Positions 14,140-62,084 of a stretch of DNA of 64,000 bases are shown in pieces (the first letter of the stretch is position 1; every line of letters starts with the position of its first letter). A program made the position numbers and the translations under genes. The notes under the pieces were generated by a model. The model was not told the origin of the DNA. It ran no database searches and saw only the letters and a program-made list of their open reading frames with translations. The stretch covers positions 63,391 through 127,390 of the forward strand of contig JACOXI010000005.1 in assembly GCA_016176335.1 (NCBI GenBank), read 5' to 3'. The stretch comes from Candidatus Daviesbacteria bacterium. GTDB lineage: Bacteria; Patescibacteriota; Microgenomatia; Daviesbacterales; UBA10151.

Positions 14140-16217
14140 TAGATCAAATTATCACTTACTCCTTTTACTTACTCTTTTTCCTAACCCCCCTTTTTTGGAC
14201 TTCTCAAAACTTTGAGCTTTTTGAATACAACAAAATGATTTTGACTTATGGAATCACAGTAATCATTGTCGGAGCCTGGATCCTTAAAGCCATAAACGAC
14301 AAACGATTAACGATCAAACGTACACCTTTAGATATACCGCTTCTTTTATTCCTAACAGCCAACATTTTATCAACTATTTTCTCCATAGACCCCCACACCT
14401 CCATTTGGGGCTATTATTCCCGCTCAAATGGCGGGCTTTTATCCATAATATCCTACCTATTATTATATTGGGCTTTTGTTTCCAATATAACTTCCGATCA
14501 AATTAAACCATTACTAAAAATTGGGCTTGTATCAGGTTTAATAATTTCCATCTGGGGTATTTCGGAACATTTTGGAGTCTCTCCCTCCTGTGTAATTTTA
14601 CGGGGACAATTTAGTGCCAATTGTTGGGTGCAAGATGTCCAAGCCAGGGTGTTTGCCACCTTGGGTCAGCCAAACTGGCTGGCAGCATATCTTGCCATGC
14701 TCATTTTCCCGGCCCTTTATTTCTTTTTGACTGCCACCACAAGATTAACCCGTACTACTTACTACTTACTACTTACTACTTACTACCTGGCCTTCACTTT
14801 TACCTATTCCAGAGGACCAACTTTGGGGCTAATTGGGGGATTTGTAGTATTTCTGTCGTTCTGGCTTGTCCAGAATCGATTCTGGAGTCGTCGCTCCGCT
14901 CCTCCCCAGAATGACACTGCTAAATTATTTGGTATTATCATTACTTCCTTCCTGGCTATTAACCTTCTCTTTGGCTCTGCCCTAACCAGCTTTAGATTAG
15001 TTTCCAAATTTGCTCCGCCTCCAAGACCTACCCTAACACTGCCTACCACCTCTGCTACCCAACTTGAGACCGGAGGCACGGAATCCGGAAAAATCAGATT
15101 AATTGTTTGGCAGGGAGCTTTGGATATTTTTAAAAACTATCCGATATTCGGCTCAGGAGTTGAGACTTTTGCTTATTCCTACTATCAATATCGTCCCTCC
15201 TCACATAACTTGACCAGTGAATGGGACTTTTTATACAACAAAGCTCATAATGAGTACTTAAATTACCTAGCAACAACTGGTTTAACAGGCTTTATTATAT
15301 ACATGGGAATAATTTTTACTTTTGTTTTTTGGAGTCTTTCAAGAATTTTAAATTTTAAATTTTCAATTTTCAATAAAAATTTTAAATTAGAAATTAAAAA
15401 TTACAAAAACGATAATTCAATAAATCTTTTATTAATAGCTCTGCTTGCATCCTATATCAGCTATCTTGTCTACAACTTTTTCTTATTCTCTGTTGTCATT
15501 ATTGCCATCTTTTTCTACCTCTTTCCCGCTCTTGCTTTTGTGGCAACAGAATCAACTAAGGTTTTTAAATGGCCTAAAAAACTATACCCTATACCCTATA
15601 CTCTATACTCTATACTTTACCGCCGTCCCATCTATACCAAAATGGTCAAAGGTATCGTGATTTTTTCTGTGCTCTTCTTTCTATATTCTATTTTCCAGCT
15701 CTGGTATGCCGACACGATTTTCAACCGTGGGCAACAAGCATCCGAGGCAGGCAATCCGGGCAGAGCTTATAATCTTTTAACAACCGCCTCGCAGTTAAAT
15801 CAGGCCGAGCCTTTTTATAGATCAGAGCTGGCTTTTTCAGCAGCTCAAGCTGCAGCTGCTTTAAAAGATACTGACGCCTCTCTTTCTGCCAAGCTTTCGG
15901 ATCAGGCCATATCTGATATGGACAGAGTTTTGCAGCAAAGTCCCCACAATGTTTCATATCTTCGAACCGCAATAAGAACCTATTTTGAGCTGGGTAGTAC
16001 TGACAAAGTCTATATAGAGAAAGCGTTGGAAGCTTTGGATAAAGCAATTTATTTGGCTCCCACCGATCCAAAACTGTATTATAACAAGGCATTAATTTTA
16101 CAATCCATGGATAAACACGATGAGGCCATAAAAGCCTTTGGGAAAGCTTTGGAATTAAAGCCTAATTATATTCAGGTTGAGGAACAACTTAAGGAAACAA
16201 CTGGATCTGCAAAATAG
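14136..16217 (+). CDS. O-antigen ligase/polymerase-like membrane protein with C-terminal TPR repeats
   Basis: 693 aa polytopic protein. Wzy_C-like segment (YNKAHNEYLNYLATTGLTGFIIY). C-terminal TPR (AIKAFGKALELKPNY). Contains three in-frame heptamer-repeat tracts. Confidence 0.6.
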   Translation: MIDQIITYSFYLLFFLTPLFWTSQNFELFEYNKMILTYGITVIIVGAWILKAINDKRLTIKRTPLDIPLLLFLTANILSTIFSIDPHTSIWGYYSRSNGGLLSIISYLLLYWAFVSNITSDQIKPLLKIGLVSGLIISIWGISEHFGVSPSCVILRGQFSANCWVQDVQARVFATLGQPNWLAAYLAMLIFPALYFFLTATTRLTRTTYYLLLTTYYLAFTFTYSRGPTLGLIGGFVVFLSFWLVQNRFWSRRSAPPQNDTAKLFGIIITSFLAINLLFGSALTSFRLVSKFAPPPRPTLTLPTTSATQLETGGTESGKIRLIVWQGALDIFKNYPIFGSGVETFAYSYYQYRPSSHNLTSEWDFLYNKAHNEYLNYLATTGLTGFIIYMGIIFTFVFWSLSRILNFKFSIFNKNFKLEIKNYKNDNSINLLLIALLASYISYLVYNFFLFSVVIIAIFFYLFPALAFVATESTKVFKWPKKLYPIPYTLYSILYRRPIYTKMVKGIVIFSVLFFLYSIFQLWYADTIFNRGQQASEAGNPGRAYNLLTTASQLNQAEPFYRSELAFSAAQAAAALKDTDASLSAKLSDQAISDMDRVLQQSPHNVSYLRTAIRTYFELGSTDKVYIEKALEALDKAIYLAPTDPKLYYNKALILQSMDKHDEAIKAFGKALELKPNYIQVEEQLKETTGSAK

Positions 16218-16251
16218 CTTTCAGCTATCAGCTTTCAGACTGACGACTACT

Positions 16252-17051: not shown

Positions 17052-17064
17052 ACTTAAAAGTCAA

Positions 17065-26064: not shown

Positions 26065-27375
26065 ATGCACAAAACTCATCTTAAGGAAAAGCATGACCAC
26101 CAAACTTTAAAATTTCCACAAGGTTTCTTATGGGGTGCTGCAACGAGTGCCCACCAGGTTGAGGGCGGAAATATTTACAATGACTGGTGGAAGTGGGAAC
26201 AGGATAGGCCCCCCCATCTTCGTTCAGGAGCAGCCTGTGATCAATATAACCGCTACAGGGAAGATTTTGAGATGGCCAAGGATCTAAACCACAACGCCCA
26301 CAGGCTGTCAATTGAATGGTCCAGAATTGAGCCTCGCGAGGGTGAATTTAACCTTGCCGAGATTGAGCATTATGTTAAGTTACTTAAGCACCTTAAGTCA
26401 CTTAATATGACAGTCATGTTAACCCTATGGCACTTTACACTGCCTGGCTGGTTAGCGGACTGCGGCGGGTGGGAGAACTTTAAAGCCCCTTTTTACTTTG
26501 AGCGTTTTGTTAAAAAAATTGCGCCTGAACTGGGAGAATACGTAGATTTCTGGGTGACCATCAACGAGCCGGGAGTTTATATTTACGAAACTTACATTGA
26601 AAGGGTTTGGCCGCATTCCAAAAAAAGCCTGATTGGCCAGATTAAAACTTATTTAAACCTTGCCTCCGCTCATAGAAAGACTTACAGATTTCTACATTCC
26701 AAAAATGCTTTGGGCAAACCAGTCGGCATGGCCCAAAACATCATGTCATTTGAACCTTACCACAAACATTCAATCATGGAGCAGCTGGCTGTTGTTGTAA
26801 ACGATATATTCACCAATCATCTTTTTTATTTTTTAACCCGAGGCACGCACGATTTCCTGGGAATAAATTACTATTTTCATGCCCGTTTAAAACACCAAGG
26901 TTTAATACCCCAAAAGGTAGACTTTTCTCCTCCAACGCACGAGGTGTCCGATTTAGGCTGGGAAATATACCCCGAGGGTCTTTTTGATGTTTTGAGTGAC
27001 CTTTCCGATGATGTGCCTATTTATATCACCGAGTGCGGCATTGCCTCAACCAACGACGATCGGAGAAACCGCTTTCTTGTAGCCTACTTACAAGAGGTTG
27101 TGAGGGCCATAAAATCAGGTGTAAATGTCAGAGGATTTTTCTATTGGTCTTTAATTGATAATTTTGAGTGGCATTTGGGATTTACACCTAGATTTGGTCT
27201 TATTGAAGTAGATTATGAAACCCAAAAAAGGCACATTCGGCCATCCGCATTAACCTTTGCGGAAATTATTGCTGCAAACGGCATTCCTCACACTTTGATG
27301 AGGTTTTTGGGACACACAGTCACATCAGAAGAGGTTTTAAAAAGATTTCAGAAAATGGAACCACAGCATAAATAA
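26065..27375 (+). CDS. glycoside hydrolase family 1 (beta-glucosidase-like)
   Basis: 436 aa. Acid/base TINEP and nucleophile ITECGIA (ITENG-type) motifs. N-terminal FLWGAATSAHQVEG. Confidence 0.8.
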   Translation: MHKTHLKEKHDHQTLKFPQGFLWGAATSAHQVEGGNIYNDWWKWEQDRPPHLRSGAACDQYNRYREDFEMAKDLNHNAHRLSIEWSRIEPREGEFNLAEIEHYVKLLKHLKSLNMTVMLTLWHFTLPGWLADCGGWENFKAPFYFERFVKKIAPELGEYVDFWVTINEPGVYIYETYIERVWPHSKKSLIGQIKTYLNLASAHRKTYRFLHSKNALGKPVGMAQNIMSFEPYHKHSIMEQLAVVVNDIFTNHLFYFLTRGTHDFLGINYYFHARLKHQGLIPQKVDFSPPTHEVSDLGWEIYPEGLFDVLSDLSDDVPIYITECGIASTNDDRRNRFLVAYLQEVVRAIKSGVNVRGFFYWSLIDNFEWHLGFTPRFGLIEVDYETQKRHIRPSALTFAEIIAANGIPHTLMRFLGHTVTSEEVLKRFQKMEPQHK

Positions 27376-27489
27376 TGCCAAAACTCAAATGTCAAAACTT
27401 AAAACTTAAAGATTTTAGCGCGTAGCGCGAACTTGTTCAGATTTGAGTTGTAGATTTGCGATTTGAGATCTAAGATTTAAGATAAACAA
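27376..27489. repeat. same heptamer-repeat palindromic element family, centre gcgcgtagcgcg
   Basis: aaactcaaatgtcaaaacttaaaacttaaag ... tagcgcgtagcgcga ... agatttgagttgtagatttgcgatttgagatctaagatttaagat. Confidence 0.75.
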
Positions 27490-31554: not shown

Positions 31555-32308
31555 TTTAAAACTCAAAACTCAAATGTCAAATGTCAAAGCTGGAGAGGAT
31601 CAGACAGCAAAATCTGAACCAGTTAATGATATAAGCGAAGGGAGACTGCCTCCGAACGCAGCGAGCCCTAGAGTCGCCGAAGGCGACCGTACCCGAGGCG
31701 AAGCCGAAGGCGAGCCGCAGGGCGTAAGTACCGAAGGTACAGTTGGCGAGCAAGAGAGCGGGGCGGTCGACCGATCAGGCAATCCTAACGCCAAATGGTA
31801 TGTTGTTCATACTTATTCCGGTCATGAAAACAAAGTGGCGCACACTTTAAAGCAGCGGATTGAATCCGAACATTTGGAAGAGAAAATTTTAGATGTTTTG
31901 GTGCCTATGCAGGATAAAATTGAAATAAAAGGCGGCAAAAAAGTAAGCATTAAAGAAAAAATCTTCCCCGGCTATATTTTGGTAAAAATGGTTTTGGAAG
32001 ATAGTTCCTGGCTGGCTGTCAGAACAACTCAAGGTGTCACCTCCTTTGTGGGTATGGGTAATAAACCCACCCCGATCTCCGATGCGGAGGTGGCCACCAT
32101 AGTCAAATTTACCCAAGAGGAGGCTCCTGTTTATAAGCAGGTTTTCTCTGTTTCGGATACTATCAAAATTGTGGACGGGCCTTTTGCAGATTTTATTGGT
32201 AAAGTGGATAATGTGGATGAGGAAAAAGGCAAGGTTAAGGTTTTGGTATCAATATTCGGGCGTGAAACACCAGTGGAGTTGGATTTTCTGCAGGTGCAGA
32301 AGATATGA
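31544..32308 (+). CDS. nusG: transcription termination/antitermination factor NusG with ~75-aa repeat-derived N-terminal extension
   Basis: NGN start KWYVVHTYSGHENKV and KOW C-terminus. No in-frame start codon near the NGN domain, so the extension (heptamer tract plus GC-rich element) appears to be translated. Confidence 0.85.
   Translation: MDDDLKLKTQMSNVKAGEDQTAKSEPVNDISEGRLPPNAASPRVAEGDRTRGEAEGEPQGVSTEGTVGEQESGAVDRSGNPNAKWYVVHTYSGHENKVAHTLKQRIESEHLEEKILDVLVPMQDKIEIKGGKKVSIKEKIFPGYILVKMVLEDSSWLAVRTTQGVTSFVGMGNKPTPISDAEVATIVKFTQEEAPVYKQVFSVSDTIKIVDGPFADFIGKVDNVDEEKGKVKVLVSIFGRETPVELDFLQVQKI
31640..31775. repeat. GC-rich element copy inside the nusG N-terminal extension
   Basis: gggagactgcctccgaacgcagcgagccctagagtcgccgaaggcgac...gttggcgagcaagagagcggggcggtcgaccgatcagg. 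Palindrome gtcgccgaaggcgac. Read in a different frame than the PBP1A copy. Confidence 0.7.
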
Positions 32309-32368
32309 TCGGCTCTTCGTATATCGAATATTGGTCATCCGATAAACGATAAACGATATTCCAAACAA

Positions 32369-35362: not shown

Positions 35363-35436
35363 AGCTATCAGTCTTCAGCTATCAGCTTTCAGACTGAAAA
35401 ATTGTCTGACGACTGATGACTGACAGCTGACGACTA
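35363..35436. repeat. palindromic heptamer-repeat element of the ctgatag/gctatca family
   Basis: agctatcagtcttcagctatcagctttcagactgaaaaattgtctgacgactgatgactgacagctgacgac. Lies between the divergent starts of the membrane-protein and dockerin genes. Confidence 0.75.
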
Positions 35437-42588: not shown

Positions 42589-42801
42589 TCCTTAATGTCA
42601 GTCAATACGACACATTGACAAACATGACATCATAAGTTAAAATAATTTGGCTTAAGACAGTGAGTGGAGCGAAGCGACATCCTGAGCATAGTCGAAGGAT
42701 GCTTTACACCATAAATCTCACCGAGGCAGTTTAGTATATCGTAAGATTGAATATCGTATATCGGAAAACCGATAAACAATAAACGATTAACGATAAACCA
42801 A

Positions 42802-42826
42802 AAACGCCTCAGAAAGGCGTTTTTTA
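42802..42826 (+). terminator. rho-independent terminator-like hairpin plus T-run abutting the rplJ start codon
   Basis: aaacgcc-tcagaaa-ggcgttttttaa, then ATG of rplJ 2 nt later. A-run on the 5' side makes it bidirectional in form. Confidence 0.5.
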
Positions 42827-42827
42827 A

Positions 42828-43364
42828 ATGGCTAAAACTAAACAACAAAAAGAGCAAGCAGTACAACAAATACAAGAAAAGCTGGGCAAGGCCAAAGCTA
42901 TAGTTTTTGCTGACTATAAAGGCTTGACCATGAAGCATTTATCCGATTTAAGAAATAAATTGCGTGATGTTAATGGCGAATTCAGTATAACCAAAAATAG
43001 CTTACTTGAACGTGCTCTTCCCGCCTCCAACTTTGAAGGTCCAACAGCCACTCTTTTTGCGTATGATGATCAAATTACCCCTATTAAAATTTTGGTCAAA
43101 GCGCTAAAGGATGCTGCCATTGGTAAAGTTAAGGCGGGGTTTTTAGGAGTTGATGTCCTGGATGAAAACAAGATTCTTACACTGGCCAGTCTGCCCTCTA
43201 AAGATGAACTGAAAGGTCAAGTTGTGGGACTATTGGCAGCTCCACTTCAAGGTATGGTATCAGTACTACAAGGAAATCTAAGAAATTTAGTGCACGTAGT
43301 GCGCGAACTTCGTTCAGTATATACATTATCAGAAATTCAAAAAGCGAAAGGAGGTGAAAGTTAG
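42828..43364 (+). CDS. rplJ: 50S ribosomal protein L10
   Basis: 178 aa. Start MAKTKQQKEQAVQQIQEKLGKAKAIVFADYKGLTMKHLSDLR. Confidence 0.85.
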   Translation: MAKTKQQKEQAVQQIQEKLGKAKAIVFADYKGLTMKHLSDLRNKLRDVNGEFSITKNSLLERALPASNFEGPTATLFAYDDQITPIKILVKALKDAAIGKVKAGFLGVDVLDENKILTLASLPSKDELKGQVVGLLAAPLQGMVSVLQGNLRNLVHVVRELRSVYTLSEIQKAKGGES

Positions 43365-43440
43365 TATATCGTAAATCGGTTATCGTATATCGGAAACACA
43401 CAAACCATAAACGATAAACCATAGACGATCAAACAACCAT

Positions 43441-44214: not shown

Positions 44215-44454
44215 ATGGCTAATAATAAATTATCACTGGAAAATCTCCCTGATTTACTAACTGTTAAAGAAGTTGCAGAAGTTTTGCGTGTTTCACCCTT
44301 AACCATTAAAAGGTGGGGCAAAAGAGGAAAATTACCTGCTATAAGAATTAATAGTAGAGGTGACAGGCGTTATAAAAAAGAGGCGGTGCTATGGCTTTTA
44401 GGTATAACCCAGAAACAAGTTTCAGGTGAATCCACTACACCTACTTCATACTAA
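44215..44454 (+). CDS. helix-turn-helix DNA-binding protein (excisionase/MerR-like HTH)
   Basis: LTVKEVAEVLRVSPLTIKRWGKRGKLPAIRI. Confidence 0.5.
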   Translation: MANNKLSLENLPDLLTVKEVAEVLRVSPLTIKRWGKRGKLPAIRINSRGDRRYKKEAVLWLLGITQKQVSGESTTPTSY

Positions 44455-44650
44455 ATATCTCAAAACTCAAATCGCAAAACATCAATGCTGCCTTCGGCAG
44501 AACAAAAATACAATTCAAATCTAAAATCTTTTAACGGTTTTGAGATTTAGGATGTAGATTTGACCCATTCGGCTTCGTTCAGGGTCATCCTGAGCATTGT
44601 CGAAGGATGCCATTTGAGATCTAAGATTTGAGATTTAGCACTTAAGTACT
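44455..44650. repeat. heptamer-repeat arms flanking a conserved core (ggtcatcctgagcattgtcgaaggatgc)
   Basis: Arms tctcaaaactcaaatcgcaaaac ... gatttgagatctaagatttgagatttag. Core has hairpin catcc/ggatg. Related cores at 42667..42702 and 61174..61220. Confidence 0.75.
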
Positions 44651-45238: not shown

Positions 45239-46030
45239 TCAACCCTTCAGCTGAGCTCTCAAAAGCAAATACAGGTATTGTATTAAAGCCAGCTGCCTTT
45301 TGATCCTCCATGGTTGAAGACACAACCTGAACAACCACTCAAATCCTAAATGTTGTATCCAAATTGGAGCTCTGGGAACCTTGCCGCTTATTATATCAAA
45401 TGCTCCCCCCACCCCCATAGCCACTTTAACAGGAATTTTGGGCAAATTTTTAGCAATCCATTTTTCTTGTTTTGGAGGACCAAGCGCCACAAACAAAATA
45501 CCTGTTTGTGGCAGATTTAAGATATAAGATTTAGGATTTATGATTTTCTCTCTATTCTTAAATCTTAAATCATAAATCATATCTCCATCATCATTAAAAA
45601 TCCCAACTTCACTGGCAAACGAGACTTTAAGTTTTGGATATTTCCTCTTCAAGCACTCAGCCGTTTTTTCTGCTATCTTCCCTCTCCCTCCTAAAAAGCC
45701 TGTTGTAAAACCCTTTTCTTCGGCCATCTTTACCAACCCTTCCATTACATCTATACCAGGGGTAGTCATAACTATATCACCAGTAAGTTTCAACCCTACC
45801 CCATCAGGAACTGCTAAATCCGCGTTATTTAATATCCTTTTAAATACAAGGTCTTTTTGGGCCGCGACGATAAACTCCGGATTAGGAGTTACTATGTAAT
45901 GTTTACCGGGATTCCAAATCCAATGCTCTACTATCGTAAGCGCTTCATTAAGACTTACATCATCAATTTTGATTCCCAGAACATCTACTTTCATAAATTC
46001 TCCAATACCCCAAGTGTTTCTTTTGCGCAT
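45239..46030 (-). CDS. tagA: WecB/TagA/CpsF-family glycosyltransferase
   Basis: 263 aa. Family motifs (IVTPNPEFIV, DLAVPDGVG). Contains an in-frame heptamer-repeat insert (YDLRFKNREKIINPKSYILNL). Confidence 0.75.
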   Translation of the reverse strand: MRKRNTWGIGEFMKVDVLGIKIDDVSLNEALTIVEHWIWNPGKHYIVTPNPEFIVAAQKDLVFKRILNNADLAVPDGVGLKLTGDIVMTTPGIDVMEGLVKMAEEKGFTTGFLGGRGKIAEKTAECLKRKYPKLKVSFASEVGIFNDDGDMIYDLRFKNREKIINPKSYILNLPQTGILFVALGPPKQEKWIAKNLPKIPVKVAMGVGGAFDIISGKVPRAPIWIQHLGFEWLFRLCLQPWRIKRQLALIQYLYLLLRAQLKG

Positions 46031-47160
46031 TTCTCCCAGCTAAATCTTTCTATATTATCAAGTCCCGCCTTAATAAGCTTAATTCTTAATTCTTGATTCT
46101 TTATTCTTATCATTCCCTTTACTATATCATCTACACTATATGGATTAACATAAACTGCTCCTTTACCAGCCACCTCCGGCATGGATGAAAGATTAGAAGT
46201 GATCACCGGACAACCACAAGCCTGGGCCTCCAAGATTGGCAAACCAAAACCTTCAAAAAGCGAAGGAAAAAGTAATGCTATTGCTCCGAAGTACAGTGCA
46301 GATAAATCTTTATCAGGCACATACCCCAAAAATTTTACCCTGTCCTCTATCCCTAATTTCTTTGGCAACTGATAAATTTCATCAGACAGCCAGCCTTTAG
46401 AACCTGCTATAACTAATTTCAGTGATTTATGATTTATGATTAAAGATTTATGATTTTTTATTCGTAAATCAGTATTCTTAAATCGTAAATCTTGCTCATA
46501 AATTAATTTTTCTTCAGATATAAACTTACTGAATGCAATAATTAAACGCTCGAGATTTTTACGAGGCTGTACTGTCCCCACAAACAAAAAATAACTATGA
46601 TACTTTAAATTATATTTCTTAATACTTTGAGTGTCTTTGAACTTTTCTTTATCATATCCTTCATAACTCACGCTGATTTTATCCGGTTTAATTCCCACCC
46701 TTTTGATAAGATCATCCTTAGTGGCCCGGGACACAGCAATCAAGGCAGTTGCGCTTTTTAGCTGGGAGCGGGTCATGAAATTTAAATACAACCTTTGTTT
46801 TAGCTGGTGCATGGCCGGAAGATATTCTGATCCCAAATCATGAACAGTCACCAAAGTCTTAAGTCCTGGCTTTCTAATAACCGGCAAGGTATGGGCAGGT
46901 ACAAATAACACATCAATATTGTCTTTGAAGGTCTGCAAAGCCAACCCCCCTTGAGTCCATAAAAATTTAAAATTTAAAGTTGAAAATTGAAAATTGTCAG
47001 GGAAATCTTTTTTAACAAAATTAACACCTGGCCTTAAATAAACTTGGTAAGTATTTTTCCTATCAATCCTTGCCAAAGCCTTAAGCAGTTGATAAGAATA
47101 ATTCTCTGTACCTGTTTTCTCTTTAATAAAGGCCCTGGAAGCATCAAATCCAATAATCAT
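45991..47160 (-). CDS. GT4-family glycosyltransferase
   Basis: 389 aa. EGFGLPILEAQACGCPVITS motif. Contains an in-frame heptamer-repeat insert (DLRFKNTDLRIKNHKSLIINHKSL). Confidence 0.8.
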   Translation of the reverse strand: MIIGFDASRAFIKEKTGTENYSYQLLKALARIDRKNTYQVYLRPGVNFVKKDFPDNFQFSTLNFKFLWTQGGLALQTFKDNIDVLFVPAHTLPVIRKPGLKTLVTVHDLGSEYLPAMHQLKQRLYLNFMTRSQLKSATALIAVSRATKDDLIKRVGIKPDKISVSYEGYDKEKFKDTQSIKKYNLKYHSYFLFVGTVQPRKNLERLIIAFSKFISEEKLIYEQDLRFKNTDLRIKNHKSLIINHKSLKLVIAGSKGWLSDEIYQLPKKLGIEDRVKFLGYVPDKDLSALYFGAIALLFPSLFEGFGLPILEAQACGCPVITSNLSSMPEVAGKGAVYVNPYSVDDIVKGMIRIKNQELRIKLIKAGLDNIERFSWEKCAKETLGVLENL

Positions 47161-47525: not shown

Positions 47526-48542
47526 TTAGCGCTTAGAAACCGACCGCTTATATAAATCCAAATTTTCCAAAGCAATGCCTGTGCCTAAGGCCACACACAG
47601 CAGTGGGTTTTCTGCCAAAGCCGCAGGTACCCCCAAAGAATCTGTTAAATGTTTATCCAAATTCCTAAGCAGCGACGTCCCGCCGCTCATCACAATTCCT
47701 TTATCAATAATGTCTGATGCCAGCTCCGGTGGAACTTGCTCTAAAACCTCTTTAACTGCCCCGATTATTTTGTGTGTTATATCGGCAATTGCCTCCGTTA
47801 CCTCATCACTGTTTATTTCAACTGTCCGAGGCAATCCTGAAAAAGCATCTCTGCCTCTCACCTCTGCTTTTTCAACTTCGGCAGGTTTAAGTTTGACTGC
47901 AGAACCAATCTTTATTTTTACATCTTCCGCCATTCTTTCCCCAATTATCAAATTATGCTTTTTGCGAACATAAGTTTGGATAGCCTCATCAATTTTATTG
48001 CCGCCAACCCGAACAGACGAGTGAACTACCACTCCTCCCAAACAAATCACCGCGGCCTCTGTGGTCCCTCCGCCAATATCCACAATCATATTGCCGGAAG
48101 GATTGGCAATGGGGATCCTGGCTCCGATTGCGGCAGCTAGAGGCTCGTCAATCAAAAAAGCTGTTTTTGCCCCAGCTGAAAGTGTGGCATCCAAAATTGC
48201 TCTTTTTTCCACAGATGTCACTCCGGCCGGTGCACAAACCATCACCTCCGGTTTAAAAATCCTGCTTGGTCCGCACACCTTGTCCAAAAAATAGCGGATC
48301 ATGGCTTCGGTGATCACATAATCCGCAATAACCCCGTCTTTCATCGGACGGGAAGCAATAATATTTCCAGGAGTTCTTCCCAACATCTCTTTGGCCTCAT
48401 TACCAACAGCCAACACCCGAGCATCATCTGTGGTGATTGCCACCACTGTCGGCTCATTGAGAACTATTCCTGTTCCCGCCAAGTAAACTAAGGAGTTTGC
48501 AGTACCTAAATCAATACCAACTCTTTTGGATAAGCCAAACAT
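47526..48542 (-). CDS. MreB/Mbl-family actin-like protein (second paralog)
   Basis: 338 aa. Motifs GIDLGTANSLVY and DIGGGTTEAAVI. Confidence 0.85.
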   Translation of the reverse strand: MFGLSKRVGIDLGTANSLVYLAGTGIVLNEPTVVAITTDDARVLAVGNEAKEMLGRTPGNIIASRPMKDGVIADYVITEAMIRYFLDKVCGPSRIFKPEVMVCAPAGVTSVEKRAILDATLSAGAKTAFLIDEPLAAAIGARIPIANPSGNMIVDIGGGTTEAAVICLGGVVVHSSVRVGGNKIDEAIQTYVRKKHNLIIGERMAEDVKIKIGSAVKLKPAEVEKAEVRGRDAFSGLPRTVEINSDEVTEAIADITHKIIGAVKEVLEQVPPELASDIIDKGIVMSGGTSLLRNLDKHLTDSLGVPAALAENPLLCVALGTGIALENLDLYKRSVSKR

Positions 48543-48600: not shown

Positions 48601-48672
48601 AGCTATCAGTCGTCAGTCGTCAGACAGAAAATTGTATAAGTCTGATAGCTGAAAGCTGAAGTCTGATGACTA
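48601..48672. repeat. palindromic heptamer-repeat element of the ctgatag family
   Basis: agctatcagtcgtcagtcgtcagacagaaaattgtataagtctgatagctgaaagctgaagtctgatgac. A half copy lies at 16216..16250. Confidence 0.75.
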
Positions 48673-53035: not shown

Positions 53036-53516
53036 TCTCTTTTTTTGCTTCTTCTTCTGATCCTGATGCATGAATCAAATTATAAACAGGTCTTTCTTCC
53101 ATATTTGCCTTAAGAATTGAATCTGTCCCTAAATCACCCCTGATAGTGCCTTTTTCAGCACTTGATGGATCGGTAAAACCAGTCACCTCACGAGCAACAG
53201 ACACTGCATTTTTTCCTTCCAAAAGCAAAGCCACAATTGGACCGGAAGTGATAAATTTCCGAAGCCATGTCACTACTTTTCTGCCCTGATCCTGGGCGCT
53301 TTTAACTTTTTGACCGGCAGCAATAGTTTTCTCACCAATTGATCGCAAATACGAAGGCTCCATGGGATAATGCTTTTCTACCAAATCATGCGGAGCCATC
53401 AGATCACGCCTCTTGACCACCTTCAAACCTGCTTGCTCATATCTTTCTATTATTTCCTCGGTAAAACCACCCTGCACTCCATCCGGCTTAATTATTATCA
53501 AAGTCTGCTGTAGCAT
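52992..53516 (-). CDS. ndk: nucleoside diphosphate kinase
   Basis: 174 aa. Start TLIIIKPDGVQ, active site NLIHASGS. Confidence 0.85.
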   Translation of the reverse strand: MLQQTLIIIKPDGVQGGFTEEIIERYEQAGLKVVKRRDLMAPHDLVEKHYPMEPSYLRSIGEKTIAAGQKVKSAQDQGRKVVTWLRKFITSGPIVALLLEGKNAVSVAREVTGFTDPSSAEKGTIRGDLGTDSILKANMEERPVYNLIHASGSEEEAKKEIKLWFGESFQRQQS

Positions 53517-53519
53517 ATC

Positions 53520-53601
53520 AAAGTATTATACATAAAAAATCTCAAATGGTAAATCTCAAATGTCAAAACTAGATTTGCGTTTTGCGATTTGAGTTTTGAG
53601 A
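53520..53601. repeat. same heptamer-repeat palindromic element family
   Basis: aaatctcaaatggtaaatctcaaatgtcaaaactagatttgcgttttgcgatttgagttttgagatt. Confidence 0.75.
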
Positions 53602-54585
53602 TTACTTAATCTCCACATCGTCAACCATAGTTGACCCGTCCTCAAATACCGTGACTACTGCAAACCTTGGTAATTGCGGGTTTCGCTCGGTTCCAACCGC
53701 TCCGATTGTGACCATAGACAGGTTGGTTTCCGGTTCGTTGTATTGGCTGAAATAGTGGGTATCGCCTGCAAAGACTTTTTTCACCCCTACAAGCGCAAAA
53801 ATTAAACTTCTTGCCTGATTTTTTAACTCCTTTTCTACCCTCCCCATTATATGGTCGGATGAGGGGTGAAAAAGCGGTTCATGGACAAACACAAATATAG
53901 CCTTAACTTGCTCATCTTTTGATCTTTCCAGCTCACCTGCAACCCACTTAAGTTGTACCTCATCTATCCCTAGATAATTATCACTGTTGTCAAGCAGTAT
54001 AAATTTAAAGTTATGTAAACTGAAAGATTGATAAGTAGGACCAAAAATTTGTCTGAAATTTGTCAGCGGAGGTTGATTTTTATCTCTTGAGTCCCACAGA
54101 TCATGATCTCCGGGAATCAGAAAGTAACGCAAGTTTGCCTCATCAAACTCTTTTTTGGCTTTTTGCATCTCATCCAAAGTACCTACTTCTGTATAATCCC
54201 CCAACCCGATAACAAATTGAATATCCGGAAAGATCTGTTTGGCTTGAGAGATTGCTTTTTGCAGGTTGTTATTGTCACTGTGTGAATCCGCTACCAGCAA
54301 AAATTTAAAGACGCTCTTGGGACTTGTTTTGGGAACGGGGGTGGAAGCAGTTAGATTTTGGGGCAATAATTTTTGATCTCCAATTTTAACCTTGGAAAGC
54401 AAGGTTAATGCCTCATTCGCGACTGATTTTGGATCAAGCTTTAAAGGATCCAAACCGGAAAAGTGCTTGTACGCGGAATATACCCCGCCTAAAAGTATAG
54501 TAAATATAATAAGGCTTAATATAAACCTGAATAAAATAAATATGGGATTGGCAGATTTTCTACCGCTGTGTTTTCTAAACATCAC
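53602..54585 (-). CDS. calcineurin-like metallophosphoesterase (membrane-anchored)
   Basis: 327 aa. Motifs LVADSHSD, GLGDYTEVG, IPGDHDLW. Confidence 0.7.
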   Translation of the reverse strand: MMFRKHSGRKSANPIFILFRFILSLIIFTILLGGVYSAYKHFSGLDPLKLDPKSVANEALTLLSKVKIGDQKLLPQNLTASTPVPKTSPKSVFKFLLVADSHSDNNNLQKAISQAKQIFPDIQFVIGLGDYTEVGTLDEMQKAKKEFDEANLRYFLIPGDHDLWDSRDKNQPPLTNFRQIFGPTYQSFSLHNFKFILLDNSDNYLGIDEVQLKWVAGELERSKDEQVKAIFVFVHEPLFHPSSDHIMGRVEKELKNQARSLIFALVGVKKVFAGDTHYFSQYNEPETNLSMVTIGAVGTERNPQLPRFAVVTVFEDGSTMVDDVEIK

Positions 54586-56201
54586 ATCCTTTCTGGTGCC
54601 GAAACTCCCAAAAGTTTTAAAGTATTTGCTAAAGTGATTTTGCAGGATTTAACCAAAGCAAGCCTTGCTTTCACTAATCCTGAAGTTTCTGCAGATAGAA
54701 CCGGACAGGTTTCATAAAACTTATGGAAAAAGTCAGCTAGAGATATGGCATACTCTGTTAGCTGATGAACTTGGAGATTAATAGCTAATTCTGACACTAA
54801 ATCAGGAAAATATAAAAGATGTTTTATCAAATTAAGCTCATATTCGGTCTGTAATTGTCCAAAATCCACATTTTGGAATTTGGAATTTGTGATTTGAGAT
54901 TTGAGCAATATATTACTCATCCTGGCATGAGCATACTGAACATAGAAAACCGGATTCTTGCTTGATTGTTCTTTTACAAGCTCAAGATCAAAATCCATGT
55001 GAGTTTGAGGGGCAAACCGCAGAAGATAAAATCTGAAAGCATCCACCCCTACCTCATCCAACACCTCTCTGGCCGTAATAAAATTACCAGCTCTTTTACT
55101 CATTTTAACGATATCAGAACCCCTCTTTACTCGAACATACTGATACAAAATTACTTTTAATCTTTTGGGGTCAAACCCTAAAGCAGAAGCTGCAGCTTGT
55201 AATCTTGACACATGACCATGATGGTTACTCCCAAATACATCAATAATTGGATCTGCTCCAGATTCAAATTTGATTTTGTGATAAACAATGTCCGCAGTAA
55301 AATATGTATATCCTCCATCGGATTTTTGAATAACTGTCTCACGATCTTTTAAAAACTCATCTTTGGGTGCCAGCCACAAAGCACCCTCTTTTTCCTTTAA
55401 TACTCCTGCCTTTTTAAGTTGTGCCAAAACTTGGGCAGCCTCTTTTCTCAAATCGGATTCATGTACAACAAGATCAAATTTAATTCCCATTGAGTGACAG
55501 TCTGCCAAAATTTCCTGATGCAAAAGAGCAACTGCCATCATGCCTGTTTCCTCATCACTCTTTCCTTCCATATCAGCACCCAAATTTTTTACCAGATCAT
55601 CTATATACCCGCCTTTGTATTGTTTTTCCTCCGGCAAATCTTTGTGGTATTTTGCCCTGATAGTTGCCCCCAAAGCCTTAATTTGTTCACCAACATCATT
55701 ATTAAGAAATTCCCTAATCACCTCATACCCTTGAGATAATAAAACATTGGCAATCACATCACCTAAAGGCCCGCCTCGGGCATTACCCATATGCAAGGGA
55801 CCGGTGGGGTTGGCGGAAACATATTCCACTCTTGCTTTCTTATCTTCTCCCAAACTAGAGCTACCAAAGTTCTTGTCTTTTTCTAAGATTTCTTTTAAAT
55901 CTTGGGCTAATTTTTCAGCTTTTACAAAAAAATTTATAAAACCGCTACCGGCAATTTTAATTTCAGAGAAATTATCCTGAGCGGAGTCGAAGGACTTCAA
56001 CTTTTCAATAATTTCATTAGCAATTTCTGTTGGAGACTGCTTATTGGAAACTCCTTCCAGTTTAGCAAGCTGCAAAGCCAAATTCGTAGTATAATCTCCA
56101 AATTGGGGATTTTTAGGAATAGATAAAACTATATCAATGGCTAGAAAGCCTAAATCCCCAATTACCTTTTTTAAATCAGCTAAAATTTGATCCTTCACCA
56201 T
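54582..56201 (-). CDS. argS: arginyl-tRNA synthetase
   Basis: 539 aa. Class I motifs (SANPTGPLHMGNARGG, KMSKRAGN). Confidence 0.9.
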   Translation of the reverse strand: MVKDQILADLKKVIGDLGFLAIDIVLSIPKNPQFGDYTTNLALQLAKLEGVSNKQSPTEIANEIIEKLKSFDSAQDNFSEIKIAGSGFINFFVKAEKLAQDLKEILEKDKNFGSSSLGEDKKARVEYVSANPTGPLHMGNARGGPLGDVIANVLLSQGYEVIREFLNNDVGEQIKALGATIRAKYHKDLPEEKQYKGGYIDDLVKNLGADMEGKSDEETGMMAVALLHQEILADCHSMGIKFDLVVHESDLRKEAAQVLAQLKKAGVLKEKEGALWLAPKDEFLKDRETVIQKSDGGYTYFTADIVYHKIKFESGADPIIDVFGSNHHGHVSRLQAAASALGFDPKRLKVILYQYVRVKRGSDIVKMSKRAGNFITAREVLDEVGVDAFRFYLLRFAPQTHMDFDLELVKEQSSKNPVFYVQYAHARMSNILLKSQITNSKFQNVDFGQLQTEYELNLIKHLLYFPDLVSELAINLQVHQLTEYAISLADFFHKFYETCPVLSAETSGLVKARLALVKSCKITLANTLKLLGVSAPERM

Positions 56202-56340
56202 AAGTTAATAATAGCATATCTCAAATGTCAAAACTCAAATGTCAAATCTGAATCTTAAAACTTAAAACTAGACTAAAACAGTTTTGAGATTTAAGTTTTA
56301 GTTTTGAGTTTTGCGATTTGCGTTTTGAGTTAACATTAGC
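56202..56340. repeat. palindromic composite intergenic element built from degenerate heptamer repeats (tcaaatg arm / cattttga arm)
   Basis: Left arm tctcaaatgtcaaaactcaaatgtcaaatctgaatcttaaaacttaaaac, centre tagactaaaacag, right arm ttttgagatttaagttttagttttgagttttgcgatttgcgttttgag. The arms are reverse complements of each other. Confidence 0.8.
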
Positions 56341-57296
56341 AATACTCCACCCAATACCATATAATACCCCACCCAAACTACCCAAATTTGTTCCCCCACA
56401 TATTCCCAGGCAAAGGGCATGGAGGCAATGAATTGAACAATGTAAACAAAATAAGTTAATAAAATATTTAAGATCAGGGCCACAACTGTTCCTAAAATCT
56501 GCGAGATTGAACCTAAAATTAGCATAACTGCCCCCCCGATCATAATAAAAGGCACTGTCCAACCTACCAGTAAATTTGTTATAACCGCAACCAATGACAG
56601 CTGGTGAAAGTGTTGGATGATAATTGGCATAACCGCAATCTGTGCACCCATTGTAATTGCCAGATCCTGGCCGATCAGCGGCAAATATTTAAAATATTTA
56701 AGCAAGATCGGGGCTATTATAATAAGTCCCATGGTTGCCATAAATGAGAGTTGAAATGACAAATCAAAAAGCCATTGGGGATTTAGAAGCAACATAAAAG
56801 CTCCTGTTACAACCAAAGTCCAAAAACCACTGTTTTGTCTGCCAAAGATTTGAGCCAAAAAGGAAAGAGAAACCATAATAGTTGCACGGAGTACAGGCAC
56901 TTGGGCTCCGGTGAGTAGTGTATAAAAAATAATTGCCCCAAAAGCTAAAATAATGGCTGCTTTTCTTTTGATAAGGCCGGCAAGTGCCAGAAAAAACCCG
57001 GCCACCATGCTTAAATTTTGGCCGGACACAACAACAATATGTAATGTTGAGGTATCTCTTAAAGCAAGTTGGAATTTTGGCGGCAAACTCTTTTTCTCAC
57101 CTAAGACAATACCTGATAAAAGTTGAGCTTGGGGCGAGGGTAAAAATTTGGTTATAGTCTCATCTAGAGCTTGACGCTGATTTTGAAAGAGATCTGTCTT
57201 TATCTCCCAACCTCCCTGTAAAAATCTTAACCAAAATAGCAATAAATATAAAATAACAGATAAAATTAAAGGGAGATTTCTATTTAAAAAATACAT
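56298..57296 (-). CDS. comEC: ComEC/Rec2 competence-domain membrane protein (no beta-lactamase domain)
   Basis: 332 aa polytopic protein. Competence-domain core (LRDTSTLHIVVVSGQNLSMVAGFFLAL). Confidence 0.65.
   Translation of the reverse strand: MYFLNRNLPLILSVILYLLLFWLRFLQGGWEIKTDLFQNQRQALDETITKFLPSPQAQLLSGIVLGEKKSLPPKFQLALRDTSTLHIVVVSGQNLSMVAGFFLALAGLIKRKAAIILAFGAIIFYTLLTGAQVPVLRATIMVSLSFLAQIFGRQNSGFWTLVVTGAFMLLLNPQWLFDLSFQLSFMATMGLIIIAPILLKYFKYLPLIGQDLAITMGAQIAVMPIIIQHFHQLSLVAVITNLLVGWTVPFIMIGGAVMLILGSISQILGTVVALILNILLTYFVYIVQFIASMPFAWEYVGEQIWVVWVGYYMVLGGVLLMLTQNANRKTQN

Positions 57297-60791: not shown

Positions 60792-62084
<1,293 letters not shown>

What the first reader, a model, noticed from the sequence alone, without database searches (positions are those of the whole stretch)
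56202..56340. Genome-wide family of palindromic intergenic elements assembled from degenerate 7-nt tandem repeats
Five or more intergenic loci share one architecture: a run of degenerate heptamers, a short centre, then the reverse-complement heptamer run. For the tcaaatg family these are 27376..27489, 44455..44650, 53520..53601, 56202..56340 and 60840..61265. Each region can fold into a long imperfect hairpin. A second family uses different heptamers (ctgatag/gctatca) with the same layout at 35363..35436 and 48601..48672, and a half copy at 16216..16250. A third family (cgataaa/cgtaaat) flanks rplK, rplJ and rplL. A 7-nt unit shared by unrelated repeat sequences is not what ordinary REP/MITE families look like. 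It points to one generating mechanism, or to a DNA- or RNA-binding factor with heptad spacing.
Basis: seen in the sequence. Interest (0 to 1): 0.85.

Follow-up and report, generated by a model that had tools for sequence, protein, structure and literature searches.

The report
Seven-base repeat hairpins in Daviesbacteria
This tiny groundwater bacterium (Candidatus Daviesbacteria) and its relatives are peppered with short runs of 7-base repeats, often as back-to-back mirror pairs that squeeze between genes and even into essential genes; the same unexplained kind of repeat is already known from cyanobacteria and Xanthomonas.

Summary
The window has 48 period-7 tandem arrays against 1.7 in shuffles. 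No neighbouring period is enriched. About a quarter of arrays sit next to their own reverse complement.

The flagged element (56214-56332) is such a pair. It lies between a comEC-like gene and the argS promoter.

The organism is Candidatus Daviesbacteria (CPR/Patescibacteria), not a cyanobacterium. Syntenic relatives share the trait at 1-11 arrays per 10 kb, against 0-1.5 in unrelated loci. About 100 different 7-nt units occur.

- **Position:** the same gene junctions and protein segments carry different unit families in different species.
- **Turnover:** whole hairpins are present or absent between genomes 84-87% identical.
- **Coding regions:** arrays sit in frame in argS, fmt and glycosyltransferase genes.
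- **Arm pairing:** arms are complementary only at a 4-5-nt core.
- **RNA structure:** there is no covariation and no Rfam match.
- **Terminators:** the elements do not have terminator anatomy.

My best reading is lineage-specific heptanucleotide "long SSR"/STRR-like arrays. They would arise by 7-nt slippage or template switching, be copied between loci, and survive only at permissive sites.

The kind is known: Mrázek 2007; Xanthomonas inverted heptamer pairs; TAACTGA repeats. This is a new member in a new phylum. Why the unit is 7 nt remains open.

The parts
56214..56269 (.). Flagged element A4, left arm: about 8 degenerate heptamers (ATCTCAA, ATGTCAA, AACTCAA, ATCTGAA, TCTTAAA, ACTTAAA)
56270..56279 (.). 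A4 centre (loop)
56280..56332 (.). A4 right arm, reverse-complement heptamers (GTTTTGA, GATTTAA, GTTTTAG, GTTTTGC, GATTTGC). Bases 56298-56331 also encode the last 11 codons (TQNANRKTQN*) of the comEC-like ORF on the minus strand.
56208..56216 (-). Putative extended -10 (TGcTATTAT) of argS, 6 nt before the ATG (leaderless layout). The motif TRTGYTATNATTA is conserved in 10 genomes. The hairpin always lies upstream of it.
   Evidence: inference from conservation
27374..27486 (.). A1: family-A inverted pair that fills the gap between a GH1 glycosidase gene and the next gene
44455..44640 (.). A2: family-A outer arms (44455-44486 / 44610-44640), an inner small hairpin (44510-44562) and a nested GC-rich element (44563-44609). 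It lies between the convergent gene at 44203-44454(+), downstream of rplL, and a GPI-like cupin gene (44698-45207, -).
53530..53606 (.). A3: family-A hairpin inserted between the metallophosphoesterase stop codon and the TATAAT box of ndk. The site is empty in 12 or more relatives.
61084..61246 (.). A5: family-A hairpin with a nested GC-rich element (61166-61215), between divergent leuS and the 61266 gene
35363..35436 (.). B1: family-B hairpin, [TCAGnnn]x4 CAGAC-loop-GTCTG [CTGAnnn]x4
48601..48672 (.). B2: family-B hairpin in the mreB|PEGA gap
16216..16250 (.). Truncated family-B copy. It shares a 24-nt identical run with B1.
32340..32358 (.). Family-C array (CGATAAA) between nusG and rplK
42730..42806 (.). 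C1: family-C inverted pair upstream of rplJ. A separate canonical terminator-like hairpin follows at 42806-42832.
43362..43436 (.). C2: family-C inverted pair between rplJ and rplL
45510..45584 (-). D1: heptamer hairpin in frame inside the WecG/TagA-type glycosyltransferase gene (encodes DMIYDLRFKNREKIINPKSYILNL). It is an insertion relative to orthologs.
46420..46494 (-). D2: heptamer hairpin of the same family in frame inside the adjacent GT4 glycosyltransferase gene. It is an insertion relative to 5 orthologs. L006 carries a different family at the same site.
15340..15410 (+). E1: AATTTTC-type inverted arrays in frame inside the O-antigen-ligase-like gene, which also carries arrays at 14294-14320, 14753-14786 and 15582-15616
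54872..54905 (-). Solo family-A array in frame in argS (LKSQITNSKFQN), in a length-variable segment. L001 has the same family there. L002 and L045 have other families.
31558..31588 (+). Solo family-A array in the N-terminal extension of the nusG ORF. It shares 20 identical nt with the A4 left arm.
46962..46996 (-). AATTTTC-type array encoding NFQFSTLNFKF in GT4. It replaces an equal-length NFQIKEIRWFR segment seen in three orthologs.

Best explanation
The flagged element is one copy of a large population of heptanucleotide tandem arrays in a Candidatus Daviesbacteria (CPR/Patescibacteria) chromosome. These are "long simple-sequence repeats" of the cyanobacterial STRR and Xanthomonas type.

**Proposed mechanism.**
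1. A lineage-specific, sequence-independent mutational process duplicates or re-copies DNA in 7-nt steps. I take this to be replication slippage or short-range template switching. It seeds and homogenises arrays anywhere in the genome.
2. Fold-back or inter-arm template switching, or copying of whole elements between loci, yields an array next to its own reverse complement. This is the hairpin form.
3. Selection then keeps arrays only at permissive places:
   - the few bases between a stop codon and the next gene's -10 box;
   - gene ends;
   - length-variable protein segments, where only stop-free, in-frame versions survive.

On this reading the elements are largely selfish or neutral DNA, not RNA genes or terminators. 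Some may secondarily supply promoter -35-like hexamers.

**Shown here:** the period-7 excess, the unit diversity, the clade distribution, reuse of the same sites, presence/absence differences, in-frame occurrence, and the lack of arm-specific complementarity.

**Inferred:** slippage as the generator, copying between loci, and neutrality.
For: - **Period specificity.** 48 arrays against 1.7 in shuffles. The pooled clade has 218 period-7 arrays against 9 (period 6) and 18 (period 8). Unrelated loci show no peak at 7.
- **Unit diversity.** About 100 canonical units occur. That argues for a length-specific, not a sequence-specific, process.
- **Clade trait with 10-fold variation among syntenic relatives**.
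- **Real DNA.** Two independent short-read assemblies of the same organism are 100% identical and end inside hairpins A4 and A3.
- **Same site, different family.** This holds for the comEC|argS, ndk|metallophos, mreB|PEGA and rplJ|rplL junctions and for the argS, GT4 and WecG segments.
- **Indels between close relatives.** Whole hairpins of 84 and 145 nt and a +21-nt array differ between genomes 87% identical.
- **Copying between loci.**
  - 20 of the 26 dispersed exact repeats of 16 nt or more in the window lie in these elements, with runs up to 24-25 nt.
  - The left arm of B1 is 31/32 identical to a copy at a non-orthologous site in L045.
- **No RNA-level signature.**
  - Arms of one copy match each other no better than arms of other copies: 0.78 against 0.97; 0.58 against 0.67.
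  - The antisense strand folds better in 7 of 8 co-directional cases.
  - Only tRNAs reach Rfam gathering thresholds; sub-threshold hits at the element are generic microRNA-precursor hairpins.
- **Stop-codon filter.** Coding arrays never block all three sense frames, while 12 of 21 intergenic arrays block all three frames on one strand.
- **Precedent.** Heptanucleotides are the commonest long-SSR class, and a polymerase-slippage idea exists (PMC4679880, citing Mrázek 2007). Xanthomonas has 70-75 inverted heptamer pairs whose positions are conserved while lengths vary (PMC4692102).
Against: - No close strain pairs were available, so +/-7-nt length polymorphism, the hallmark of slippage, was not observed directly.
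- Slippage alone does not explain several observations:
  - why the unit is 7 nt;
  - the conserved 4-5-nt core with free spacers across species in families A and B;
  - the below-random complementarity of spacer positions;
  - equal-length replacement of coding sequence by arrays;
  - conservation of a 31-nt arm between species at non-orthologous sites, which suggests constraint or true mobility.
- Neutrality is assumed, not tested. There are no expression data.
Confidence: 0.55

Rival explanations
1. The arrays are binding sites for an oligomeric DNA- or RNA-binding protein that reads a short core every 7 nt. This would resemble HutP reading NAG-N4 triplets or TRAP reading GAG repeats. Dyad symmetry would let it bind from either direction, for example as an insulator or regulator at tightly packed, leaderless genes.
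For: - In family B the TCAG/CTGA core is 78-94% conserved and phased, while the three spacer positions are free.
- Family A varies only within AWSKYAA.
- Cores and arms are conserved between species at non-orthologous sites.
- Elements sit directly upstream of -10 boxes.
- The same CTGA core occurs in TAACTGA repeats, for which a binding protein was proposed (PMC4679880).
Against: - About 100 unrelated units share only their length.
- Many arrays lie inside coding sequence.
- Relatives with empty sites keep the same genes and promoters.
- Hairpins occur in co-directional, convergent and divergent gaps alike.
- No candidate protein was identified.
Confidence: 0.15
2. The hairpin subset (families A, B, C and others) consists of miniature inverted-repeat transposable elements. 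A transposase or Y1/RAYT-type enzyme encoded elsewhere in the genome would mobilise them. Heptad periodicity would be a feature of their ends.
For: - The elements have dyad symmetry and conserved outer ends (AGCTATCAG...CTGATAGCT; ATATCTCAAA...).
- Whole elements are present or absent between close genomes.
- Long identical runs are shared between loci, and assemblies break in the arms.
- Different elements insert at the same junctions.
Against: - No consistent target-site duplication was found at four filled/empty comparisons.
- No transposase lies in the 64-kb window.
- Copies are mosaics of shuffled unit variants rather than near-identical copies.
- This model does not explain solo arrays or the many unit families that share only the 7-nt length.
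Confidence: 0.15
3. The hairpins act at the RNA level. They would be transcription terminators, RNase processing sites or 3'-end stabilisers between genes, like REP/BIME elements in enterobacteria.
For: - They lie at gene boundaries and fold better than shuffles, with z from -3 to -7 for most.
- The 3' arms of family A are U-rich in either direction of transcription.
Against: - There is no arm-specific complementarity or covariation.
- The antisense strand folds better in 7 of 8 cases.
- Stems are long, AT-rich and mismatched, with no GC stem plus U tract. The only terminator-like match in 53300-56600 is not at a hairpin, and a canonical terminator-like hairpin exists separately at 42806-42832.
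- Some hairpins sit between divergent genes or inside ORFs.
- Relatives lack the hairpins at the same junctions.
Confidence: 0.08
4. The pattern is an assembly artefact or chance AT-rich low complexity.
For: The source is a metagenome-assembled genome. The arrays are AT-rich.
Against: - Shuffles give 1.7 arrays against 48 observed.
- Independent Logan assemblies reproduce the sequence.
- The same trait appears in 12 or more MAGs from different studies.
Confidence: 0.01

Closest known systems
Heptanucleotide long simple-sequence repeats (LSSR; Mrázek, Guo and Shah 2007, as summarised in PMC4679880 and PMC4692102)
   Same: - Tandem 7-nt units are far more common than other unit lengths.
- The phylogenetic distribution is sporadic.
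- The arrays are mostly intergenic.
- Polymerase slippage with a 7-nt footprint has been proposed as the cause.
   Different: - The host is a CPR/Patescibacteria lineage with a very small genome.
- Units are AT-rich and very diverse (about 100).
- Arrays are short (2-8 copies) and degenerate.
- Many lie in frame inside housekeeping genes.
Xanthomonas GGGAATC and Nostoc GGGGAYT heptamer repeats (Rehm et al. 2015, PMC4692102)
   Same: - Intergenic heptamer arrays occur.
- 70-75 cases in each Xanthomonas genome are pairs in convergent orientation on opposite strands, i.e. an array plus its reverse complement.
- Positions are conserved between species, while length and sequence vary.
   Different: - There it is one G-rich family able to form G-quadruplexes.
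- Here there are many AT-rich families with no G4 potential.
- Here the unit family turns over at a given site.
TAACTGA direct repeats of marine Beggiatoaceae, cyanobacteria and Bacteroidetes (MacGregor 2015, PMC4679880)
   Same: - The 7-nt unit has the same CTGA core as the family-B right arms (CTGATAG/CTGATGA against CTGATAA).
- The repeats lie just upstream of start codons.
- A few occur within ORFs.
- No mechanism is known.
   Different: - Almost all are direct repeats, with one indirect repeat out of 170 sets.
- That genome has a single unit.
- Here dyad-symmetric pairs are common and the units are many.
Cyanobacterial STRR sequences (Mazel et al. 1990; cited in PMC4692102; used for fingerprinting in PMC5088731) and small dispersed repeats nested in them (Elhai et al. 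2008, recalled from memory, paper not held)
   Same: - Several heptamer families are dispersed at many loci.
- Intergenic regions are variable but repeat-built.
- Small GC-rich hairpins are nested inside heptamer arrays and inside genes. Such nested hairpins are also seen here in relatives.
   Different: - The phylum and the unit sequences differ.
- The STRR units recalled from memory (CCCCAGT, TTGGTCA, CAACAGT) are not among the 45 most frequent units here.
Rickettsia palindromic elements (RPE; Ogata et al. 2000, from memory) and MITEs/REPINs
   Same: - Palindromic non-coding elements are inserted in frame into conserved protein genes and between genes.
- Elements are present or absent between relatives.
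   Different: - Those are single-sequence families without internal 7-nt periodicity.
- No transposase link or target-site duplication was found here.

Membership tests
Heptanucleotide long SSR / STRR-type arrays | Head-to-tail copies of a 7-nt unit, more and longer than chance | tested here: met
   48 TRF arrays against 1.7 in shuffles; 20 exact runs against 0 for periods 6 and 8-13
Heptanucleotide long SSR / STRR-type arrays | Excess specific to period 7 and shared by the lineage, absent from unrelated genomes | tested here: met
   Clade: 218 arrays (period 7) against 9 (period 6) and 18 (period 8). Controls: 24 against 31 and 15
Heptanucleotide long SSR / STRR-type arrays | Predominantly intergenic | tested here: inconclusive
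   Arrays cover 10.8% of intergenic bases against 1.27% of ORF bases (8.5-fold), yet 55% of array bases lie in ORFs
Heptanucleotide long SSR / STRR-type arrays | Copy number varies by whole units between strains (slippage) | not testable with these tools
   No relative closer than 84% nt identity was found. One +21-nt and one 84-nt (12 x 7) difference were seen between L005 and L045.
Cyanobacterial STRR (sensu Mazel 1990) | Host is a heterocystous cyanobacterium; units are STRR1-3 | tested here: not met
   The host is Candidatus Daviesbacteria. The recalled STRR units are not among the 45 commonest units.
MITE | Terminal inverted repeats | tested here: met
   Dyad symmetry with conserved outer ends
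MITE | Target-site duplication of fixed length | tested here: inconclusive
   Filled/empty comparisons show no consistent duplication. The best candidate is an imperfect TTAAG/TTATG at A3.
MITE | Cognate transposase in the genome | not testable with these tools
   None among the window's genes. The rest of the genome was not available.
REP/BIME/REPIN | A 20-40-nt conserved imperfect palindrome associated with a RAYT gene | tested here: not met
   The elements are 70-165 nt, built of heptads, and belong to many families. No Y1 transposase lies in the window.
Intrinsic terminator | Short GC-rich stem followed by a U tract | tested here: not met
   No terminator-like site falls at A3 or A4. Stems are AT-rich and mismatched.
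Structured RNA family | Rfam match at the gathering score, or covariation that preserves pairs | tested here: not met
   Only tRNAs pass gathering thresholds. Sub-threshold hits are generic microRNA-precursor hairpins. Arms are not specifically complementary.
In-frame palindromic insertions (RPE-like behaviour) | A palindromic element is inserted in frame in a conserved gene and absent from orthologs | tested here: met
   WecG 45510-45584 and GT4 46420-46494 against orthologs. This is a resemblance in behaviour only; sequence relatedness to RPE was not tested.

The most novel reading that the evidence does not exclude
A dedicated, still unknown system in these CPR bacteria writes or maintains dyad-symmetric heptad arrays. 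Two candidate forms are a replication or repair enzyme that re-copies DNA with a 7-nt offset, and a protein that reads a 4-nt core every 7 nt on both arms.

Such a system would actively install and replace arrays at gene boundaries and in tolerant protein segments. There they would act as insulators or as donors of -35 elements for leaderless genes.

The following observations would then be signatures of that system rather than of drift:
- the conserved core with deliberately non-complementary spacers;
- equal-length overwriting of coding sequence;
- replacement of one family by another at the same site in genomes only 13-16% diverged.
Probability: 0.12. Interest if true: 0.85.

Novelty: new member of a known kind. 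Interest (0 to 1): 0.45.

Why it matters
**An old open question.** Heptanucleotide arrays have been known since 1990 in cyanobacteria. They were shown in 2007 to be the commonest long-SSR class in several bacterial lineages. Nobody knows why the unit is 7 nt or what the arrays do.

**Why this lineage helps.**
- Daviesbacteria have minimal replication and repair gene sets.
- Gene order is highly conserved among them.
- Array density varies 10-fold among close relatives.
- These three properties make it practical to correlate gene presence or absence with array density, and to run population-level slippage tests.

**Practical consequences.**
- The arrays break short-read assemblies.
- They create low-complexity insertions and altered termini in essential proteins (ArgRS, Fmt and others).
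- They can separate promoter elements.
- All of this affects annotation and comparative analysis of CPR genomes.

Tried and rejected
1. **Cyanobacterial origin.** My first guess was a Nostocales genome with STRRs. ArgRS and MreB relatives are Candidatus Daviesbacteria, so this was rejected.
2. **Rfam.** At gathering thresholds only tRNAs match. In e-value mode only generic plant/animal microRNA-precursor hairpins appear, far below threshold.
3. **Terminator scan.** Nothing falls at the hairpins.
4. **RNA-level selection.**
   - Sense-versus-antisense folding went the wrong way, with antisense better in 7 of 8 cases.
   - Arm-specific complementarity was not above the between-copy level.
5. **Microevolution in near-identical pairs.** L054/L055, L056/L061 and L007/L057 are array-poor or identical, and no 7-nt indels were seen.
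6. **Closer relatives.** The metagenome scan gave none closer than 76% ArgRS identity. Via MreB the best is L181, at 84% nt identity.
7. **Target-site duplications.** None is consistent across sites.
8. **General polarity rule for inverted pairs** (open-frame arm first, stop-rich arm second). The count was 12 against 5 with 3 ties, which is not convincing. Outward -35-like hexamers numbered 20 against 8 inward, which is weak.
9. **Candidate enzymes in the window.** Only housekeeping genes are present.
10. **Literature.**
    - No paper in the library pairs heptanucleotide repeats with Patescibacteria/CPR.
    - Elhai 2008 and Mrázek 2007 are not held, so they are cited second-hand or from memory.
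Full report

At 56214-56332 the plus strand reads as follows. About eight degenerate heptamers come first (ATCTCAA ATGTCAA AACTCAA ATGTCAA ATCTGAA TCTTAAA ACTTAAA). A 10-nt centre follows. Then comes the reverse-complement run (GTTTTGA GATTTAA GTTTTAG TTTTGAG TTTTGCG ATTTGCG TTTTGAG).

The repeat finder reports arms 56215-56262 / 56280-56327, 48 nt and 75% complementary. Folded as single-stranded DNA the region gives -18.9 kcal/mol, z = -3.3. As the sense (minus-strand) RNA it gives -25.8 kcal/mol, z = -2.75.

- Family A (TCAAATG type) is at 27374-27486, 44455-44640, 53530-53606 and 61084-61246.
- Family B (TCAGnnn / CTGAnnn) is at 35363-35436 and 48601-48672, with a truncated copy at 16216-16250.
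- Family C (CGATAAA type) is at 32340-32358, 42730-42806 and 43362-43436. These flank rplK, rplJ and rplL.

The excess over chance is large.
- TRF finds 48 period-7 arrays against 1.7 per dinucleotide-preserving shuffle. Periods 6 and 8 give 0 and 2.
- Exact period-p runs number 20 for p = 7 and 0 for p = 6 and 8-13.

**2. Where does the window come from?**

I first assumed a heterocystous cyanobacterium, because heptamer "STRR" repeats are classic there. That was wrong.
- The ArgRS next to the element (54582-56201, minus strand) has its closest relatives, at 68-74% identity, in Candidatus Daviesbacteria / Microgenomates MAGs.
- The MreB at 47526-48542 is 100% identical to an NCBI protein of "Candidatus Daviesbacteria bacterium" on a 160-kb contig.

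The window is ordinary chromosome. It carries clpB-like, dprA, PBP2, mreBCD, pyr genes, def-fmt, nusG-rplKA, rplJL, glycosyltransferases, sortase, ndk, argS, comEC/comEA and leuS. No transposase or reverse transcriptase is present.

Two independent short-read assemblies of the same organism (Logan SRR12113430 and SRR12113420) are 100% identical to the window. Their contigs end about 30 nt inside hairpins A4 and A3. So the arrays are real, and the arm sequences are repeated elsewhere in the genome.

**3. How general is it?**

Twelve relatives are syntenic with window 42.8-64 kb. They carry 1.2 to 10.6 period-7 arrays per 10 kb. Twenty-five unrelated loci retrieved by the same search carry 0-1.5.

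About 0.48 Mb of clade DNA was pooled; it includes some duplicate contigs. It has 218 period-7 arrays, against 9 at period 6 and 18 at period 8. About 100 distinct canonical units occur. In 0.65 Mb of control DNA the counts are 24, 31 and 15.

Several unit families recur across species: CTCAAAT, TCAGnnn, CTAGAGT, TAGGGTA/CCTATAC, AATTTTC, AAAGTTC and GTATTAA.

In the window the arrays cover 2.1% of all bases, 10.8% of intergenic bases and 1.27% of ORF bases. Eleven of the 23 gaps of 60 nt or more contain them.

**4. Hairpin architecture.**

Of 164 arrays in 13 sequences, 39 have an inverted partner within 150 nt. The chance expectation is 1.4%. Intergenic arrays are mostly paired and coding arrays are mostly solo.

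Most pairs fold better than shuffles, with z between -3 and -7. The complementarity, however, is generic rather than specific to each copy.
- **Family A.** The two arms of one copy match each other no better than arms of different copies. Normalised local scores are 0.78 against 0.97.
- **Family B.** Eight copies were examined in the window, L003, L005 and L045. Their common layout is [TCAGnnn]x4-5, CAGAC, an A/T-rich loop, GTCTG, then [CTGAnnn]x4-5.
  - The four core positions are 78-94% Watson-Crick complementary across the dyad.
  - The three spacer positions are only 19-25% complementary. That is lower than between different copies, where it is 29-50%.
- **Strand test.** In 7 of 8 cases where flanking genes define the transcribed strand, the antisense strand folds better.
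- **Databases and scans.** No Rfam family matches. The terminator scan finds nothing at the hairpins. A canonical terminator-like hairpin exists separately at 42806-42832.

I conclude that these are not structured RNA genes or intrinsic terminators. What is maintained is the phased core motif and the dyad arrangement, not base pairing.

**5. Arrays inside genes.**

Twenty-four arrays lie in ORFs with clear Pfam identities.
- argS: 54872-54905, encoding LKSQITNSKFQN.
- fmt: 17056-17080 and 17651-17681.
- A DHODH-like gene: 10620-10656.
- An O-antigen-ligase-like gene, with four arrays.
- A WecG-type glycosyltransferase, with a full hairpin at 45510-45584.
- A GT4 glycosyltransferase, with a hairpin at 46420-46494 plus two solo arrays.
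- The N-terminal extensions of nusG and rplA.

Alignments with orthologs add detail.
- The argS array sits in a length-variable segment. L001 has the same unit family there, while L002 and L045 have other families.
- The WecG and GT4 hairpins are insertions relative to most orthologs.
- L006 has hairpins of a different family (AGTATAG/CTATACT) at the same two protein positions.
- Within each genome the two adjacent genes carry the same family.
- Two GT4 segments show arrays replacing sequence of equal length. NFQFSILNFKF stands against NFQIKEIRWFR. Four different units occupy the same columns of a C-terminal helix.

A 7-nt DNA repeat encodes a 7-residue peptide repeat. This may help tolerance in helices; that is my inference.

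A stop-codon filter is visible. Coding arrays never block all three sense frames. Twelve of 21 intergenic arrays block all three frames on one strand.

**6. Turnover and site reuse.**

Four orthologous junctions were compared in up to 25 genomes.
- **Baseline state.** The gap is 0-20 nt or the genes overlap. A TATAAT-like box lies 6-8 nt before the ATG, a leaderless layout. It is conserved at argS in 10 genomes and at ndk in about 25.
- **Filled state.** Inserts always lie between the upstream stop codon and that box.
- **Different species carry different inserts:**
  - ndk|metallophos has family A (window), CTAGAGT hairpins (L009, L011), a CCCTATA array (L003) and a GTAACAA array (L012).
  - mreB|PEGA has family B (window, L005), family-A-like hairpins (L003, L181), AAAGTTA (L006), CAGTTTA (L045) and a 14-mer hairpin (L055).
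  - Other genomes have a GC-rich element instead.

Genomes only 13-16% diverged still differ.
- L005 and L045 (87% identical) differ by whole hairpins of 145 and 84 nt. They also differ by a +21-nt array in argS and by unit family at two sites.
- L181 (84% identical to the window) has an empty ndk site. It also has a different small hairpin at the mreB|PEGA site.

No consistent target-site duplication was seen.

There is evidence of copying between loci.
- Of the 26 dispersed exact repeats of 16 nt or more in the window, 20 lie in heptamer elements, with runs up to 24-25 nt.
- The left arm of B1 is 31/32 identical to a copy at a non-orthologous site in L045.

**7. What it most likely is.**

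The unit length is the only property shared by about 100 unrelated sequences. The trait is lineage-wide and its density varies. The arrays arise in coding and non-coding DNA alike and are then filtered.

This fits a length-specific mutational process, most simply replication slippage or short template switching in 7-nt steps. That idea was proposed for heptanucleotide long SSRs (Mrázek 2007, as summarised in PMC4679880 and PMC4692102).

The inverted pairs, the long identical runs between loci and the all-or-none differences between close genomes show a second layer. Arrays or hairpins are copied or replaced as units. I cannot say whether this occurs by recombination-like conversion or by true transposition.

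Function is not required by any result.

One possible side effect concerns promoters.
- At ndk, the ancestral -35 (TTGACG, inside the upstream gene's last codons, 18 nt from TATAAT in L181) is displaced about 70 nt by hairpin A3.
- A variant unit of the hairpin supplies TTTACC at 17 nt from TATAAT.
- Families A and B present TTGACA-, TTGAGA- or CTGACA-like hexamers every 7 nt on their outward strands.
- Over 20 pairs the outward bias is weak, 20 against 8.

**8. Comparison with what is known.**

The kind is known.
- Heptanucleotide repeats are the most abundant long-SSR class in several lineages (PMC4679880, citing Mrázek 2007).
- Three tandem heptanucleotides were reported in Calothrix (PMC4692102, citing Mazel 1990).
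- Xanthomonas has about 185 GGGAATC arrays, of which 70-75 cases are convergent pairs on opposite strands. Positions are conserved between species while lengths vary (PMC4692102).
- TAACTGA (= CTGATAA) repeats sit upstream of start codons in Beggiatoaceae, cyanobacteria and Bacteroidetes (PMC4679880).
- A scan of IMG/VR with TCAGnnnTCAGnnnTCAGnnnTCAGAC returned 103 stretches, mostly of 50-67% GC. Several are full hairpins, and those contigs again show a period-7 peak: 383 arrays against 80 (period 6) and 74 (period 8).

So the phenomenon is widespread and sporadic.

What is new here is the host phylum. No paper in the library links heptanucleotide repeats with Patescibacteria. Also notable are the breadth of unit families, the frequency of in-frame copies in housekeeping genes, and the well-resolved pattern of "same site, different family".

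**9. Verdict.**

The element is a new member of a known but mechanistically unexplained class. It is moderately interesting, mainly because this small-genome clade could make the old "why seven?" question testable.

Noticed in passing
window 56202-56216 (argS) and 53517-53530 (ndk); L001-L009 upstream of argS; about 25 loci upstream of ndk: A conserved TATAAT-like box, with an extended TGn at argS, lies only 6-8 nt before the ATG and there is no Shine-Dalgarno sequence. These genes look leaderless. In relatives with empty sites, the ndk -35 (TTGACG) lies inside the last codons of the upstream gene.
   Followed up: partly
window 44563-44609 and 61166-61215; also 55968-55991 (argS, FDSAQDNF) and 11443-11466 (DHODH-like, FDFAQGEP); L003, L007, L009, L041, L047 and L052 at the metallophos|argS junction: A second dispersed element of about 50 nt is GC-rich (…CCTTCGACTyCGCTCAGGATGA… plus a small hairpin). 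It is nested in the centres of family-A hairpins. It is also inserted at gene junctions in relatives and occurs in frame inside proteins.
   Followed up: partly
L005/L045 alignment (e.g. L045 ~3139, ~3212; L005 ~16532, ~16790); L002 and L005 rplL 5' region; window 43608-43623: Tiny GC-rich hairpins of 21-30 nt (CCCCGATnnAATCGGGG, CCGCCAAAGGCGG, ACCGCCAGCTGGCGGT) are inserted in frame in genes and nested inside heptamer hairpins. They are present or absent between genomes 87% identical.
   Followed up: no
window 43441-44088 (rplL), 32806-33723 (rplA), 31544-32308 (nusG): L7/L12, L1 and NusG ORFs carry low-complexity N-terminal extensions of 80-130 residues. The L7/L12 start (MADDQ…) is conserved in relatives, so that extension seems to be real.
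   Followed up: partly
L038 and L039 ends; L181 end (11234-11259): Short-read (Logan) contigs stop inside heptamer arrays. These repeats fragment assemblies of this clade.
   Followed up: yes
L078-L180 (IMG/VR contigs), e.g. L081, L086, L093, L095, L096, L106: More than 100 viral-collection contigs, mostly high-GC, carry TCAG-N3 heptamer arrays. Several are full hairpins, and L093 has 24 period-7 arrays in 9.9 kb. The hosts are unknown.
   Followed up: partly
window 42806-42832: A canonical terminator-like hairpin (GCCTCAGAAAGGCG followed by TTTTTT) lies immediately upstream of rplJ. It may be an L10-leader or attenuator-type element and is distinct from the heptamer hairpin beside it.
   Followed up: no
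window 12311-13375 and 47526-48542: There are two MreB paralogs about 50% identical to each other. The second is 87-91% identical to its orthologs across the related loci.
   Followed up: no
L011, L012, L058, L060, L062: These loci are syntenic with the window but encode an ArgRS only about 30% identical at the same position. This looks like displacement of argS by a distant homolog within the clade.
   Followed up: no
L181 3235-7787: The closest relative has a DUF4238 / serine-recombinase (resolvase) island between ndk and the sortase gene. The window has an SLT gene and tRNAs there instead.
   Followed up: no
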